Source of the DNA: a virus
Taxonomy: Duplodnaviria > Heunggongvirae > Uroviricota > Caudoviricetes
Direction: 5' to 3' (one strand)
IMG/VR virus record: IMGVR_UViG_3300011960_000019
DNA: 64,000 nucleotides
The position numbers were made by a program, and so were the translations under genes. The notes beneath the pieces are model-generated. The model did no database searches, had not been told where the DNA came from, and saw nothing but the letters and a program-made list of their open reading frames with translations. Positions 8,925-15,863 of the stretch are shown here, piece after piece. Each line of letters starts with the position of its first letter. Within the stretch, counting starts at the first letter, position 1.

Positions 8925-8958
8925 CCTGTACGAACAGCTTAGTTGCCTGTTCGTACAG
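8925..8958. promoter_or_regulatory. 13-bp inverted repeat cctgtacgaacag / ctgttcgtacagg with 8-bp spacer (operator-like)
   Basis: Read directly. Lies about 55 bp upstream of the vWA gene start. Confidence 0.45.
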
Positions 8959-9011
8959 TGATAAATTACGCACATCAGAAAACAAATTGTTTTAATAACA
9001 AGGAAATTCTC

Positions 9012-11480: not shown

Positions 11481-14400
11481 ATGACCGCTACTGCACTACA
11501 GCAAGAAGAACATTTGCCGGAAGCCATCGTCTGCAAGTGGTGTGGCAAATCCTTTCATTACCTGAAATCCCATATCTCTATGGGCCGCTGCGAGAACATT
11601 CCTGAGTCCGCGAAAGGTCTGGACGTGGACGAGGTGGTGAAAATGTACACCACTGCGTTTCCGGATGAACCAACGATCTCTCGCACGGCACTGGCCAAAC
11701 TCAATGAGAAGCGTGCCGAAAAGCATTCAGGCGAAGGAAAAGTAGCGGAGATTAGCGCACACCCGGGCTACGCAGGAACGGTCGAATACAAGACCGAACT
11801 GGTGGCCGCGCACGAGCTGCTTGGCGTAACGATCAAAGAGCTGGGAACGCCACGCGGAAAACCACTACAGGTGACAGTCAATGTCAACACGCCATATCCG
11901 GAGTTCGTACCGGAAGCGAAGAAGAACTATGTGTATGGCGACTTCGACCTGATTAAAGACATCTTCATGATGCTGGAAATCGGAATCCCAGGCTATCTCT
12001 GGGGTCATGCAGGAACCGGTAAATCTTCTCTTCCTACGCAGCTATGCGCCCTGCTGAATCGACCACTGATCCGCGCCCAGCATACGGCGTCTATGGAAGA
12101 AGCACACGTTACAGGCCAGATCCTCGCTCGCGATGGCTCCACCTACTTCGAGCCGGGTTTGCTGGCGCTGGCGATGAAAAATGGCTGGGTGTACCTCGCT
12201 GATGAATATGACTTCGCGTTCCCGCAGATTCTGGGTGTGTACCAGCCAGTTCTTGAAGGAGAACCGCTGATCATCAAAGAGGCAACTCCGGACTGGCGCC
12301 GTATCACTCCGCATAAACGCTTTGCCTTCATTGGCACTGGAAACACTAACGGCTCTGGCGACGAAACGGGTCTCTATCAAGGAACGAACATCCAGAACGC
12401 GGCGAACTTCTCGCGCTTCGGCATTGTTTCGAACGTGAAGTACATGAGCACTAAGGCTGAAGTCAACATGCTGGCTGAGGCTGGCGTCATCCGCGAATAC
12501 GCCGAGAAGATGGTGAAATTCGCGAACCTTGTCCGTGAAGGTTATGAACAGCATCTGATCAGCCAGCCAATCGGCCCTCGCGAGCTGCTGCTGTCCGCAA
12601 AAATCGGAATGATGCGCGGTGATTTCTCTGCCGGCATCGAAAAGTCGTTTATCAATAAACTTCCATCCACGTCTGCACAGGCAGCGCGTGAAGCCAACAA
12701 GCGCGAGCAATTCTACTTTGTCCCGCGTCTGGCGCTTGACCAGCTGGCGGCCGCATATGCCAAAGGCAACATCATCCTGCTGACGTCTGACATTGGCAGT
12801 GTATTCCAGCGCCGGGACTTCGCAAAGATTATCGGGACGCTGGTGACAACTGGAGGACGCGATAACTTCTACAGCGTGGTTTATCCGCACCCTACCCCAT
12901 TCTACGACCAGATTAACGTCCGGGCGATGAAAGTGGCGAGCGCACTGAAAATAGAGCCAGTGGCGTTCTATCCTGCTTATTACGAAGCGGTCGACGACGC
13001 TGACATTAAAGACATTGCGCACATGGTTACGAACAACATCAAAATCGACCAGCCGCATCGTCTGCGTATTCCCCACCAGCGAGATAACGCCGTTAATGGT
13101 CGCCGCCATCTCCTTGAAGCGCTGAAAGCCTTCTCCGTTCGAATGGATGTGCCGGTAACATCTGCAATGGCCTCAACAACGCAGGACACCATTATTGAAG
13201 CCTGCACATGGCGCTGGCATGAATTGTCACCAGCACTGCCCAAGATGGCAGACGACGAGCCTGCAACGCTGATGAAGCTGGCTGTCGCGGGGCTGCGCAA
13301 GCGTCTTACTACCAAAGAGTTTGGCTACACACCACCGGCTTCTGAGCACCGTGTGTATGTTGATCGCCTGAAGTACGAAATGGACACTCTGACCCGCCTG
13401 GGCTTCTGTGGTTACTTCCTGATGGTGCGCGACCTGATGAATCACAGCCGTGAAACTGGCATTCCTGTCGGGCCAGGTCGTGGTTCCTCTGCCGGTTCTC
13501 TGGTAGCGTGGTGCATCGGCATAACCAACGTCGATCCTATCCGTCACGGTCTTCTGTTTGAGCGTTTCATTAACCCTGAACGTCTCGACTTGCCGGATGC
13601 GGATCTGGACTTCAGCCAGGCACGTCGACATGAGGTGATCGAGTATCTGAATGAACGCTATGGCGAAGATTACGTTGCAGGTATTCCGAACTTCACCTAT
13701 CTGGGCGCGGCTTCGGCGCTGCGTGACACTGCACGTATTTACGGTGTCGACGCTGCGGATATGGCGGTATCCAAAGAGTTCAAGAATCTGGAAGACGATA
13801 GCCTGTCACTGGAAGAGCTGCGCGAGCAACTGGCCAGCCTGGACAAATACGCCACGAAAAACCCGCAAGCGTTCAAAGCGGCGTGTAAGCTGCAAAACCT
13901 AATGCGTGGTTTTGGCCGTCATGCAGCGGGGATGATCGTCGCTGGCGTTCCATTGGTAGAGCGCACGCCCGTCGAGCTGCGTGGCAACGCTCGCTGTATT
14001 GCGTTCGATAAACGTTACTGCGAGGCGATGGGGCTGATTAAGCTGGACGTTCTCGGTCTGGCAACGCTCGATCTGCTGGATAGCGCTAAACGCTACATCA
14101 AAGAGAGTACCGGGGAAGACATCAATCTCGATGCCATCCCACTGGACGATCGCAAGGTTCTGGATGGGTTCGCTGCAGGGTACACGCAGGGCGTATTCCA
14201 GCTGGAGTCCGGCCCCATGCGCAAGCTGCTTAAAGATCTGGGCGGTGGCATTGAACCAATGAGCTTCAAAACCGTTGTCGCCACTACCGCACTCTTCCGA
14301 CCAGGCCCGATTCAATCCGGCATGTTGGACGACTATGTCTCCGTGGCCAAAGGCTTCATGGCTCCACAGTCGTTGCACCCGGTACTGGACGAACTTACCG

Positions 14401-15863
14401 CGGAAACCAACGGCGTGATTCTGTATCAGGAACAGACGATGAACGCGACACGATTGCTGGCCGGCTTCACGATGGCCGAAGCTGATGGTGTGCGTAAAGC
14501 GATCGGTAAAAAGGATATGGAAAAGATGAAGAGCATGGGCGAGAAGTTCGTCGTTCAGGCTCAAGCTGGTTGGATCGACGTTGAGATGGAAGACGGCACA
14601 ACGCAGCGTATTCACCGCGCGGAACACTTTAAATGTGAGGACGGCGCACTGCGGACGGTCGAAGAAGCGCTGGAGGCTGGTGTGAAATTGCCTATGGCTG
14701 CTGTACGCGTTACAGGGTCACAACCGGGCTTGTCTGAAACGAAAGCGAGGGAGATCTGGGCTGCCTTCGAGAAGAACGGTGCGTATCAGTTCAACAAATC
14801 ACACTCCGTTGCCTACTCGCTGATCAGCTATCAGTCTATGTGGTTAAAGACACATTACCCTGCTGAGTTCTTCGCTGCTGCGCTCACCATTCTGGGAGAG
14901 GATAAGCACCAGGGGCTGGTTAAGGATGCGCTGACCTATGGCATTCGCGTATTACCACCAGACGTTAACGTGTCATCTAACCGAATTGAGATCCGCACGC
15001 TGGAAGACGGCAGCCAGGTACTGTATGCGCCATTCTCTGCTGTGAAAGGCTGCTCTGAGAACGGATGCCAGGCCATCATGAGAGCGCGTGAGAAAGTTGG
15101 CGGCAAATTCGAGTCACTTGAGCAATTTGAGGAAGCGGTCGAGAAGCGTGCGTGTAACAGCCGGGTACGCGAGTCACTGCAAAAAGTAGGTGCGTTCGCA
15201 TCGATTGAGCCTGGCAGTCTGCCAGCGACAGATCCGGAACGACTGCGCGACCAGGCAGAGTTGATGGGCAATCTGGTGATCGACGCTGTAAAAGCCTCTC
15301 GACCGTTCGAGATGACCCCTAAGCGCTCTGCTGAAGTGAATGTACTGATGACTCGCATGGCGGCAGAAATGGGTCTGGGAGACGACCTGATCCGCCCAAG
15401 CATTGGCATTAAGCCGAAAATCATGATCATTCTGGACAACGCGAACGGCAATGATGGGCGTACCGGCTACTTCATGGAGAACGGCTACGACGACTTTAAG
15501 GCGAAGTTGCTTACTGCAGGCGATCTGCGCATGGGCGATCTCTACGTCACCGGCGTGTGCAAAAAGGTAAAGGACAAAGAGAAGGATTACACCAAAGACG
15601 AGATCGGCCAGTTCACCGACTTTATGCGTGAAGAGATCAATCTGGTGCGTCCGACCTATGTGCTGACGTGTGGCAGCCGGGCGACGTCGCTCTTCAACAA
15701 CAAGAGCAAACCATCCGACCTGGTTGGACGCAAAGAGTATCTGCCAGAGCTGGATGTGACCGTTTTCTACGGATTTAACCCGAACATTTTGTACTTTCGC
15801 CCAGAGGAAGGCGAAAAGCTGGAAGCAATTCTGGCAGAGGTAGCGGAGACTATTAGCAAATGA
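11481..15863 (+). CDS. fusion protein: Zn-finger-like N-terminus + MoxR/CobS-like AAA+ ATPase + DNA polymerase III alpha (DnaE)-type polymerase core lacking a recognisable PHP domain
   Basis: - Single uninterrupted 1460-aa ORF.
- Residues ~170-400 carry Walker A [9 protein letters not shown] and Walker B VYLADEYD.
- Residues ~600-700 carry the DnaE palm motif [12 protein letters not shown]...[23 protein letters not shown]...[20 protein letters not shown].
- The His-rich PHP motifs are not seen upstream of it. Confidence 0.75.
   Translation: [1460 protein letters not shown]

What the first reader, a model, noticed from the sequence alone, without database searches (positions are those of the whole stretch)
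8943..15863. CobT-like vWA protein followed by a single ORF fusing a CobS-like AAA+ ATPase to a DnaE-type polymerase that lacks the PHP domain
Phage CobS/CobT-like pairs (MoxR AAA+ plus vWA) are normally separate from the replicative polymerase.

Here one uninterrupted 1460-aa frame carries three parts in order:
- A CxxC...H...C zinc-finger-like N-terminus.
- A MoxR-type AAA+ module (GHAGTGKSS / VYLADEYD).
- The DnaE palm, fingers and C-terminal region (GFCGYFLMV...[23 protein letters not shown]...FERFINPER).

The approximately 270-aa PHP exonuclease/pyrophosphatase domain that normally precedes the palm shows no His-rich motifs.

Either this is a genuine domain fusion, with a chaperone-like ATPase tethered to the polymerase, or a frameshift-free artefact of gene fusion. 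In both cases it is unusual.
Basis: partly seen in the sequence, partly recalled or inferred. Interest (0 to 1): 0.55.

Follow-up and report, generated by a model that had tools for sequence, protein, structure and literature searches.

The report
Deletion-made CobS–DnaE fusion in defective phage-plasmid
The 1460-aa "ATPase–polymerase fusion" is real in the sequence, but it is the by-product of a recent 552-bp deletion joining two normally separate neighbouring genes in a decaying SSU5-like phage-plasmid that has also lost its capsid, packaging and nucleotide-metabolism genes, so it is an ordinary gene remnant and not a new protein architecture.

Summary
Both ORFs exist exactly as described: CobT-like 8943/9012..11384, and a 1460-aa ORF at 11481..15863 carrying AAA_5, Pol III alpha palm, fingers and HhH, with no PHP hit. 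The window is an SSU5/pHCM2-type phage-plasmid, 99.9% identical around the locus to Enterobacter hormaechei pECL189-2. In that plasmid, in SSU5, and in every other relative examined, cobS-like (411 aa) and dnaE (1172 aa, with a PHP hit) are separate genes.

The window carries a clean 552-bp in-frame deletion at 12692/12693 with 2-nt microhomology. It removes:
- the last 7 CobS codons;
- a conserved small Cys-rich gene;
- DnaE codons 1-116, about 40% of a catalytically degenerate PHP domain.

The junction is absent from 268 matching PLSDB plasmids, 24 E. coli plasmids, GTDB genomes, IMG/VR and JGI metagenomes. No other fusion appears among 5.8 billion protein clusters. Three further unique deletions (about 4.2, 8.4 and 15.4 kb) removed recombination genes, nrdAB/thyA/DHFR/3'-5' exonuclease, and terminase/portal/capsid, while repA and parB are intact.

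Verdict: a singleton deletion allele in a defective phage-plasmid. Low interest.

The parts
9012..11384 (+). CobT-like VWA protein, 790 aa from ATG 9012. The mechanical ORF starts at TTG 8943. It has an N-terminal CobT domain, an acidic D/E-rich linker at aa ~245-470, and a C-terminal VWA domain with MIDAS DLSGS at nt 10815-10829. The gene is intact.
   Evidence: It is 99.7% identical over the full length to the pECL189-2 'porphyrin biosynthesis protein'.
11481..15863 (+). Chimeric 1460-aa ORF made of CobS-like residues 1-404 joined to DnaE residues 117-1172.
   Evidence: It differs from the corresponding parts of pECL189-2 CobS and DnaE by 0 and 3 residues respectively.
11481..12692 (+). CobS-like MoxR-type AAA+ ATPase part (aa 1-404 of 411). 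It has an N-terminal CxxC motif and Walker A at nt 12003-12026. It lacks only the last 7 residues (VVQKIFG) and its stop codon.
   Evidence: Pfam AAA_5 at 173-293; phrog_249 at 12-400.
12692..12693 (.). Deletion junction A. 552 bp are missing relative to SSU5 and pECL189-2, with 2-nt microhomology (AG), in frame.
   Evidence: The junction 80-mer is absent from all 268 matching PLSDB plasmids, from GTDB genomes, from IMG/VR and from metagenomes.
12693..13268 (+). Remnant of the degenerate PHP domain (fusion aa 405-596, equal to DnaE 117-308). The first 116 residues of the domain are deleted.
   Evidence: No Pfam hit on its own (protein 4). It is collinear with the PHP regions of 5lew, 4jom and 2hpi when anchored by the palm. 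The phrog_405 match starts at profile position 146.
13269..14057 (+). Pol III alpha palm domain (PF07733) with the catalytic aspartates retained (D706, D708, D856).
14064..14564 (+). Pol III alpha fingers domain (PF17657).
14940..15209 (+). Helix-hairpin-helix domain (PF14579).
15423..15860 (+). C-terminal UDG-like domain typical of this phage DnaE family.
   Evidence: The Pfam UDG hit is weak in the window (E 0.028). phrog_13175 matches at 1315-1460. The UDG hit is unmarked (confident) in the distant relatives L010 and L012.
17906..17907 (.). Deletion junction B. About 4.16 kb are missing, covering the gp32-like regulator, the 5'-3' exonuclease, the recombinase and the 5' half of the SPFH gene. 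Microhomology is AA.
   Evidence: The junction is absent from 225 matching plasmids.
29065..29066 (.). Deletion junction C. About 8.45 kb are missing, covering nrdA, nrdB, a MazG-like gene, thyA, DHFR, an AAA gene and most of the DEDDh 3'-5' exonuclease. The junction is out of frame. The adjacent GTPase gene is also absent.
53238..53240 (.). Deletion junction D. About 15.4 kb are missing, covering the large terminase, portal, major capsid, head and tail genes, and the first 1164 codons of the tape measure gene. Microhomology is TGG, and the junction is out of frame.
   Evidence: The junction is absent from 355 matching plasmids.

Best explanation
**What is shown**
- The window is a defective derivative of an SSU5/pHCM2-type phage-plasmid.
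- In the ancestor, as in all relatives, the gene order was cobT-like, cobS-like, a small Cys-rich gene, then dnaE, each a separate gene.
- A recent illegitimate (microhomology-mediated) deletion of 552 bp removed the last 7 codons and stop of cobS-like, the small gene, and the ribosome-binding region plus first 116 codons of dnaE.
- 552 is a multiple of three and the two genes share a frame, so the result reads through as one 1460-aa ORF.

**What is inferred**
- The polymerase part keeps its palm catalytic aspartates, fingers and HhH domain.
- It has lost about 40% of its PHP barrel. [quoted passage not shown]
- It can now be made only as a fusion from the cobS start codon.
- The lesion is tolerated because the element is maintained as an IncFIB plasmid through RepA and ParB with the host replisome.
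- The phage life cycle is already abolished by three other deletions that removed terminase, portal, capsid, recombination genes, the nrd/thy/DHFR module and the proofreading exonuclease.
- The fusion ORF is therefore a neutral remnant of phage-to-plasmid decay, not an evolved architecture.
For: **Relatives keep separate genes.**
- This holds in SSU5, pJN2-26, PhiR41_1 and pECL189-2.
- It also holds in distant Xenorhabdus, Photobacterium and uncultured-phage contigs.

**The junction is mapped to the base.** It shows 2-nt microhomology and a 552-bp loss.

**The event is recent.**
- The flanks carry 7 mismatches in 10.5 kb compared with pECL189-2.
- The fusion protein differs from the intact proteins by only 3 residues.

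**The fusion is a singleton.**

| Search | Result |
|---|---|
| PLSDB plasmids matching the junction 80-mer | 0 of 268 carry it |
| E. coli plasmids with full coverage | 24 of 24 are undeleted |
| GTDB genomes, IMG/VR, JGI metagenomes | 0 exact hits |
| Contigs carrying the exact protein | only 3, each ~78 kb |
| Junction-spanning 310-aa protein query | no hit above 53% coverage among the best 120 of 1186 |

**PHP is present in the intact protein and lost here.** The intact family DnaE scores as PHP (PF02811, 6-156, E 8e-12). The fusion does not.

**The element carries three more clean deletions.**
- The junctions are unique where tested, namely B and D.
- terL, portal, the major capsid gene, nrdA, nrdB, thyA, DHFR, the 5'-3' exonuclease and the recombinase give no tblastn hit in the window.
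- repA, parB, the integrase and the helicase are 99.7-100% identical to pECL189-2.
- The contig is 78.1 kb, which is about 110 kb minus about 30 kb.

**dnaE is dispensable for plasmid carriage.** Complete circular E. coli plasmids of the family have it truncated (pXJW9B263-1) or deleted (pLR-46_1).

**Literature**
- PHP is always present in C-family polymerases, and its integrity controls the stability and activity of Pol III (PMC3666897).
- Phage-plasmids turn into plain plasmids by gene loss (PMC10879196).
Against: - The ORF is fully open, and the CobS part and the polymerase active site are intact, so activity of the fusion is not excluded by sequence alone.
- The family PHP domain is already non-catalytic, so only a structural role is lost. 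No experiment on this family shows that the N-terminal half is indispensable.
- Non-functionality rests on analogy with E. coli Pol III point mutants, not on a truncation experiment.
- The structure prediction was too poor to help.
- Raw reads could not be inspected.
- The 14 kb of the contig outside the window was not seen.
Confidence: 0.85

Rival explanations
1. The fusion was made by the deletion but still works. The CobS-like AAA+ body replaces the missing half of the PHP domain as an N-terminal scaffold, and the chimeric protein still polymerises DNA, or still acts as a CobS-type ATPase together with CobT. On this reading the allele is a tolerated hypomorph and not dead.
For: - The ORF is open.
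- Walker A/B and 404 of 411 CobS residues are retained.
- The palm aspartates D706, D708 and D856, the fingers and the HhH domain are intact.
- The PHP domain of this family has no catalytic role to lose.
Against: - PHP integrity governs the stability and activity of Pol III, and Pol III unfolds cooperatively (PMC3666897).
- The deletion removes the N-terminal part of the barrel.
- The element has also lost its proofreading exonuclease, recombinase and all packaging and capsid genes, so there is no phage replication cycle left for a polymerase to serve.
- The event is too recent (3 aa differences) for the open frame to indicate selection.
Confidence: 0.1
2. The fusion is an assembly or sequencing artefact. 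The 552 bp are present in the real DNA, and the fusion exists only in the assembled contig.
For: - All records of the fusion may come from a single isolate.
- The assemblies appear to be short-read draft contigs.
- No reads could be examined.
Against: - The identical protein is on three ~78-kb contigs, and its sequence is listed under three sources: NCBI, Logan and JGI/IMG.
- The junction has only 2 nt of microhomology and no flanking repeat, so a k-mer graph collapse is not expected.
- Three other deletions with the same signature lie in the same contiguous sequence.
Confidence: 0.04
3. The fusion is an evolved, selected domain fusion that tethers a MoxR-type chaperone ATPase to the replicative polymerase.
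For: - cobT-cobS-dnaE adjacency is conserved over large distances, which suggests a functional link between the ATPase/VWA pair and replication.
- Fusions of functionally linked neighbours do occur in evolution.
Against: - No second example was found in PLSDB, E. coli genomes, GTDB, IMG/VR, JGI metagenomes or the 5.8-billion-cluster protein set.
- The allele is 99.9% identical to unfused relatives.
- It removes part of a universally conserved domain and a conserved small gene.
- It sits in an element that has lost its phage genes.
Confidence: 0.02

Closest known systems
Salmonella phage SSU5 genes SSU5_049-052 (JQ965645), and the same module in Enterobacter hormaechei pECL189-2 (NZ_CP047967.1), S. 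Typhi pHCM2 (NC_003385.1) and Y. pestis pMT1 (NC_003134.1)
   Same: - Same gene order and orientation.
- 96% nucleotide identity to SSU5 and 99.9% to pECL189-2.
- The CobT-like protein is full length, and the CobS-like and DnaE sequences are essentially identical where present.
   Different: - The window lacks 552 bp: the CobS C-terminal 7 aa, the small Cys-rich gene SSU5_051, and DnaE residues 1-116.
- Two proteins of 411 and 1172 aa therefore become one of 1460 aa.
- The window element also lacks about 28 kb of other phage genes.
Bacterial C-family replicative polymerase Pol III alpha (E. coli DnaE 2hnh/4jom, Taq 2hpi, M. tuberculosis DnaE1 5lew)
   Same: - The palm with its three catalytic aspartates, the fingers and the HhH domain align at E 1e-110 to 1e-122.
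- The intact family protein is collinear with them from residue 8.
   Different: - The N-terminal ~116 residues of the PHP domain are missing in the window.
- The family PHP has lost nearly all nine metal ligands, making it a 'variant PHP' in the sense of PMC3666897.
- The C-terminus carries a UDG-like domain. No OB-fold or tau-binding region was detected.
Aerobic cobaltochelatase CobS/CobT (MoxR-type AAA+ ATPase plus VWA partner)
   Same: - AAA_5 with a CbbQ_C-type lid in relatives.
- CobT and CobT_C Pfam domains, and a MIDAS motif.
- 50-60% identity to proteins named cobaltochelatase CobS by their sources.
   Different: - No CobN or other cobalamin-pathway genes are nearby.
- The pair sits in a phage replication module next to dnaE and gp32, so 'porphyrin biosynthesis' is probably a name carried over by homology (inference).
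Defective phage-plasmids, i.e. plasmids derived from phage-plasmids by gene loss (Pfeifer & Rocha 2024, PMC10879196)
   Same: The plasmid replication and partition genes are kept, the phage structural and lytic genes are lost, and the element persists as a plasmid.
   Different: - That process was described for P1-like elements, whereas this is an SSU5-type element.
- Here the decay is very recent. Four clean deletions lie in mostly 98.5-99.9%-identical flanking DNA, and no mobilisation genes were seen to have been acquired in the window.

Membership tests
C-family DNA polymerase (DnaE type) | N-terminal PHP domain, which is always present in the family | tested here: not met
   - There is no PF02811 hit in the fusion at E<=1, and none on the remnant alone.
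- Intact SSU5 DnaE scores 46.2 bits against a cut-off of 26.4.
- The first 116 residues are deleted.
- The remaining ~190 residues are collinear with the C-terminal part of PHP.
C-family DNA polymerase (DnaE type) | Palm domain with three catalytic aspartates | tested here: met
   - PF07733 scores E 4e-73.
- D706 and D708 (PDADLDF) and D856 (KLDVLGL) align to Taq D463, D465 and D618.
C-family DNA polymerase (DnaE type) | Fingers and helix-hairpin-helix DNA-binding domains | tested here: met
   PF17657 scores E 1e-44 and PF14579 scores E 1e-16.
C-family DNA polymerase (DnaE type) | C-terminal OB-fold and tau-binding region of cellular DnaE | tested here: not met
   No OB-fold family appears in the Pfam scan at E<=1. 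The C-terminus matches phage-specific PHROGs and UDG instead. This is a property of the whole phage family, not of the fusion.
MoxR/CobS-type AAA+ ATPase | AAA_5 core with Walker A and Walker B | tested here: met
   - PF07728 scores E 2e-14 at 173-293.
- GHAGTGKS is at aa 175-182.
- VYLADEYD is read directly from the translation.
MoxR/CobS-type AAA+ ATPase | CbbQ_C-type C-terminal lid | tested here: inconclusive
   PF08406 scores only E 0.24 in the SSU5 protein. It is recorded for many homologues at 50-60% identity.
CobT-like VWA partner | CobT N-domain plus a C-terminal VWA domain with a MIDAS motif | tested here: met
   PF06213 scores E 2e-37 and PF11775 scores E 2e-114. DLSGS is at aa 602-606.
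Cobaltochelatase (cobalamin pathway) | Presence of a CobN partner and a cobalamin-pathway context | tested here: not met
   The neighbours are an integrase, a regulator, dnaE, gp32-like and exonuclease genes. No cob genes are annotated in pECL189-2.
Functional SSU5/pHCM2-type phage-plasmid | Plasmid replication and partition genes (IncFIB repA, parB) | tested here: met
   repA is 99.7% and ParB 100% identical to pECL189-2 over the full length.
Functional SSU5/pHCM2-type phage-plasmid | Complete phage morphogenesis genes (terminase, portal, capsid, tape measure) | tested here: not met
   terL, portal and the major capsid gene give no tblastn hit. Only tape-measure residues 1165-1526 remain. There is a clean 15.4-kb deletion at 53238-53240.
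Evolved multidomain fusion protein | The architecture recurs in independent or diverged lineages | tested here: not met
   Junction and protein searches find it in one element only. All relatives have separate genes.

The most novel reading that the evidence does not exclude
The accidental in-frame fusion is tolerated because CobS-like and DnaE normally work as a physical complex. On this reading the conserved cobT-cobS-small Cys protein-dnaE-gp32 module is a MoxR/VWA-assisted polymerase assembly or remodelling system, and the chimeric protein keeps some activity. The allele would then be a natural hint at a new accessory system for phage C-family polymerases.
Probability: 0.04. Interest if true: 0.45.

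Novelty: already known. Interest (0 to 1): 0.08.

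Why it matters
It matters little for biology. It shows that an eye-catching 'new domain architecture' can be a one-off deletion allele, and that comparing with the nearest intact relative settles the matter quickly.

Practical value:
- **Annotation.** This ORF should be flagged as a fusion or pseudogene of cobS-like and dnaE, not propagated as a new protein family. 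In the 90%-identity clustering it already merges the CobS-like and DnaE proteins into one cluster of 1983 members.
- **Typing.** The element is a clear, very recent example of an SSU5-type phage-plasmid decaying into a plain plasmid.
- **A lead.** The conserved cobT-cobS-small Cys protein-dnaE module, still labelled 'porphyrin biosynthesis', is the part that may deserve functional study.

Tried and rejected
- **Structure prediction.** I predicted fusion residues 405-870 with a 10-sequence alignment. Mean pLDDT was 38.8 and pTM 0.27. The model is unusable, so no fold search was run.
- **PHP region alone against solved structures.** Only marginal hits came back (E 0.04-0.6). The alignment becomes reliable only when anchored by the palm.
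- **Exact junction scans.** GTDB genomes, IMG/VR and JGI metagenomes all returned nothing.
- **A second in-frame fusion at junction C.** I first thought the hypothetical gene was fused in frame to the exonuclease tail, because the ExoIII motif HSALYDT is visible in the DNA. Translation showed the junction is out of frame, so the idea was rejected.
- **The missing 552 bp as a mobile insertion in the relatives.** Rejected. The segment carries the 3' end of cobS, a conserved small gene and the 5' end of dnaE, and it is present in every relative.
- **Programmed frameshift or readthrough producing such a fusion in intact relatives.** Rejected. The genes are separated by a stop codon and about 180 bp that encode another protein in a different frame.
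- **The Zn-finger-like N-terminus as special to the fusion.** It is identical in the separate SSU5 CobS-like protein.

Full report
**Observation**

Pfam places these domains on the long protein:

| Domain | Residues |
|---|---|
| AAA_5 | 173-293 |
| DNA_pol3_alpha (palm) | 597-859 |
| DNA_pol3_finger | 862-1028 |
| HHH_6 | 1154-1243 |
| UDG (weak) | 1342-1410 |

There is no PHP hit even at E<=1. The upstream protein has CobT and CobT_C/VWA domains and a MIDAS DLSGS motif. Its real start is most likely ATG 9012 (790 aa), as called and annotated in relatives. PHROGs splits the long protein cleanly. phrog_249 ('porphyrin biosynthesis', CobS-like) covers residues 12-400. phrog_405 (DNA polymerase) covers 403-1459 but starts only at profile position 146 of 1190. 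That was the first sign that a polymerase N-terminus is missing.

**What the locus is**

The region is 96% identical to Salmonella phage SSU5 and 99.9% identical to Enterobacter hormaechei plasmid pECL189-2, an IncFIB, non-mobilizable, 110-kb SSU5/pHCM2-type phage-plasmid.

In SSU5, Klebsiella pJN2-26, Escherichia PhiR41_1 and pECL189-2 the locus reads cobT-like, cobS-like (411 aa), about 180 bp, then dnaE (1172 aa), as separate genes.

Pairwise alignment shows that the window lacks 552 bp present in all of them. The left flank ends at window 12693 and the right flank begins at 12692. The two flanks share only the dinucleotide AG.

The deletion removes three things:
- the last 7 codons and the stop of cobS-like;
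- the whole intervening stretch;
- the first 116 codons of dnaE.

Because 552 is divisible by three and the two genes share a frame, the product is CobS(1-404) joined to DnaE(117-1172), which is 1460 aa. No new residues arise at the joint (…[12 protein letters not shown]…). Over 10.5 kb of flanking DNA the window differs from pECL189-2 by 7 substitutions and no other indel. The fusion protein differs from the intact proteins at 3 positions. The event is therefore very recent.

**Is the fusion found anywhere else?**

| Search | Result |
|---|---|
| 80-nt junction probe against PLSDB | matches 268 plasmids, each by one half only; none carries the junction |
| 601-nt probe against complete E. coli genomes | all 24 plasmids covering it do so in two pieces 552 bp apart |
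| Exact junction in GTDB species genomes | 0 hits |
| Exact junction in IMG/VR | 0 hits |
| Exact junction in JGI metagenomes | 0 hits |
| Exact 1460-aa protein | 3 contigs of ~78 kb (the one shown is NCBI GCA_032072765.1); the protein itself is listed under NCBI, Logan and JGI/IMG; probably one isolate assembled several times |
| 310-aa junction-spanning query against 5.8 billion protein clusters | 1186 hits; none of the best 120 covers more than 53% |

The other members listed for the protein's 1983-member cluster are 1172-aa DnaE or 411-aa CobS-like proteins, or partial fragments of them. Each hit to the junction-spanning query is either a CobS or a DnaE. One caveat applies: singletons can hide inside clusters represented by a normal-length protein, as this one does.

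**The PHP question**

The intact family polymerase does have a PHP domain. SSU5 DnaE scores 46.2 bits (cut-off 26.4) on PF02811 over residues 6-156. It aligns in one continuous stretch from residue 8 with M. tuberculosis DnaE1 (5lew), and from about residue 90 with E. coli Pol III alpha.

The breakpoint (116/117) corresponds to roughly residue 121 of DnaE1 and 104 of E. coli alpha. About 40% of the domain is lost, and fusion residues 405 to about 596 are its C-terminal remainder.

Using the nine ligand positions tabulated by Barros et al. (PMC3666897) and the alignments, the family has:

| Ligand positions | Residues in the family protein |
|---|---|
| 1-5 | M/R, R, E, S, K |
| 6 | no His |
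| 7 | S or D |
| 8 and 9 | P and Y |

These assignments come from my reading of the alignments, so the single positions are approximate. The domain is a catalytically dead 'variant PHP'. This fits the presence of a separate DEDDh 3'-5' exonuclease gene in the intact element.

The same paper shows three things:
- a PHP domain is always present in C-family polymerases;
- Pol III unfolds cooperatively;
- even point mutations in the degenerate PHP site lower its stability and activity.

By inference, removing the N-terminal part of the barrel should damage the polymerase, although its catalytic aspartates (D706, D708, D856) and other domains are intact. My attempt to model the region failed (pLDDT 38.8).

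**Context: the whole element is decaying**

Aligning the full window to pECL189-2 reveals three more clean deletions. Their flanks are mostly 98.5-99.9% identical, except the right flank of junction C at 90%.

| Junction | Window position | Size | What is lost |
|---|---|---|---|
| B | 17906/17907 | ~4.16 kb | gp32-like regulator, 5'-3' exonuclease, recombinase, half of an SPFH gene |
| C | 29066 | ~8.45 kb | nrdA, nrdB, a MazG-like gene, thyA, DHFR, an AAA gene, most of the 3'-5' exonuclease; the next GTPase gene is also absent |
| D | 53238-53240 | ~15.4 kb | large terminase, portal, major capsid protein, other head and tail genes, the first 1164 codons of the tape measure |

Junctions B and D show 2-3 nt of microhomology, and no matching PLSDB plasmid carries either (0 of 225 and 0 of 355).

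A tblastn of the pECL189-2 proteins against the window confirms the losses. It also shows that repA, parB, the integrase, the helicase and the distal tail genes are 99.4-100% identical. The losses sum to about 30 kb, which matches the 78-kb contig against the 110-kb relatives.

Of the four deletions, one happens to be in frame. For a deletion with both ends in same-strand coding sequence that has a one-in-three chance.

Independent evidence shows that dnaE is dispensable for plasmid carriage. Two complete circular E. coli plasmids of the family have it truncated after about 132 codons by insertion sequences (pXJW9B263-1) or deleted (pLR-46_1). A 539-aa PHP+HHH_6 internal-deletion allele also exists in public data (P0040). 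Conversion of phage-plasmids into plain plasmids by gene loss has been described for P1-like elements (PMC10879196).

**Mechanism**

*Shown:* a microhomology-flanked 552-bp deletion fused two adjacent genes in frame, in an element that has also lost its morphogenesis, recombination, nucleotide-metabolism and proofreading genes while keeping its plasmid backbone.

*Inferred:*
- The deletions arose by illegitimate recombination or replication slippage.
- They persist because loss of lytic functions is neutral or favourable for a plasmid-borne prophage.
- The polymerase moiety is destabilised.
- The CobS moiety, lacking only 7 residues but now carrying a 1056-residue tail, may or may not still assemble with CobT.

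**Rivals**

| Rival | Confidence | Main reason against |
|---|---|---|
| Deletion-made but still active fusion | about 0.1 | see below |
| Assembly artefact | about 0.04 | several contigs listed under three sources, no repeat at the junction, three similar deletions in the same contig |
| Evolved fusion | about 0.02 | no recurrence, near-identity to unfused relatives |

For the still-active rival, PHP integrity governs Pol III stability, the element has no phage replication cycle left for a polymerase to serve, and the event is too recent for the open frame to signal selection.

**Comparison with the known**

All components are known genes of SSU5-type phage-plasmids: SSU5_049, 050, 051 and 052. 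The fusion is not a member of a new family. It fails the one test that would define an evolved architecture, which is recurrence. As a polymerase it fails the PHP criterion of the C-family.

The order cobT-cobS-(small ORFs)-dnaE-x-gp32 is kept in a Xenorhabdus 109-kb contig, a Photobacterium contig and a 96-kb uncultured-phage contig, at 57-61% CobS identity. In each, the genes are separate and the DnaE has PHP.

**Verdict**

Novelty: already known genes, carrying a singleton deletion allele in a defective element. Interest is 0.08.

The only thread with some promise is the conserved MoxR/VWA-small Cys protein-DnaE module itself, whose 'porphyrin biosynthesis' label is probably a misnomer.

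Noticed in passing
window 17906-17907, 29065-29066 and 53238-53240: There are three further clean deletions relative to pECL189-2, of about 4.2, 8.4 and 15.4 kb. They remove the recombination genes, the nrdAB/thyA/DHFR/3'-5' exonuclease module, and terminase/portal/capsid/most of the tape measure. The junctions that were tested are unique to this element, so it is a defective phage-plasmid.
   Followed up: yes
L001 6748-6951 (SSU5_051); L005 ~5320-5520; L002, L003, L013, L014 between cobS and dnaE; deleted in the window at 12692/12693: The 'intergenic' ~180 bp between cobS-like and dnaE encodes a conserved 57-67-aa Cys-rich protein with motif GCFGS-x11-12-CxxC-x5-C. It is conserved out to Xenorhabdus and Photobacterium. 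It is annotated in SSU5 but not in the pECL189-2, pJN2-26 or PhiR41_1 records. Its function is unknown.
   Followed up: partly
L010, L012, L013, L014 and window 9012-15863: The cobT-cobS-(small ORFs)-dnaE-x-gp32 order is conserved in distant phage and plasmid contigs. In one uncultured phage a sigma70_r2-like gene sits between cobS and dnaE. The MoxR/VWA pair looks like part of the replication module, so the usual 'porphyrin biosynthesis' label is probably a misnomer.
   Followed up: partly
window 15423-15860 (fusion aa ~1315-1460): This phage DnaE family ends in a UDG-like domain instead of the OB-fold and tau-binding region of cellular DnaE. The Pfam hit is weak here and confident in distant relatives.
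   Followed up: partly
window 9744-10420 (CobT-like aa ~245-470): A long acidic, low-complexity D/E/S/G-rich linker (34-46% D+E) separates the CobT and VWA domains. Total protein length varies between relatives (702-790 aa), presumably through this linker.
   Followed up: no
window 1423-3949: A low-GC (about 37%) mosaic segment is not shared with pECL189-2. It carries an AbiH abortive-infection gene at 1431-2414 (Pfam E 2e-69) and an unknown 463-aa ORF at 2504-3895.
   Followed up: partly
window 39812-41980: A UzuA-like (Uzume defence, GIY-YIG) gene at 39812-40648 (PADLOC E 4e-58) is followed by an unknown 396-aa ORF, in another mosaic segment.
   Followed up: partly
window 16335-17321 (-): A DUF4365 / restriction-endonuclease-like gene lies on the opposite strand just downstream of dnaE. 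It gives a weak PADLOC hit to an Aga REase-type model.
   Followed up: no
window 32056-33673: A class-I glutamine amidotransferase gene and a divergent AraC-family regulator form accessory cargo not present in pECL189-2.
   Followed up: no
window 1174-1248: A tRNA-Asn (GTT) gene. SSU5 also carries a tRNA-Asn, just upstream of its cobT-cobS-dnaE genes.
   Followed up: no
L006 6496-6891; L007 6315-6323; protein P0040: Other dnaE lesions occur in the family. The gene is truncated by IS and transposon debris in E. coli pXJW9B263-1 and deleted in pLR-46_1. A 539-aa PHP+HHH_6 internal-deletion allele is also in public data.
   Followed up: partly
protein cluster of window 11481-15863: Because the chimeric protein bridges both families, the 90%-identity clustering puts 411-aa CobS-like and 1172-aa DnaE proteins into one 1983-member cluster. 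This is a database artefact worth knowing about.
   Followed up: no
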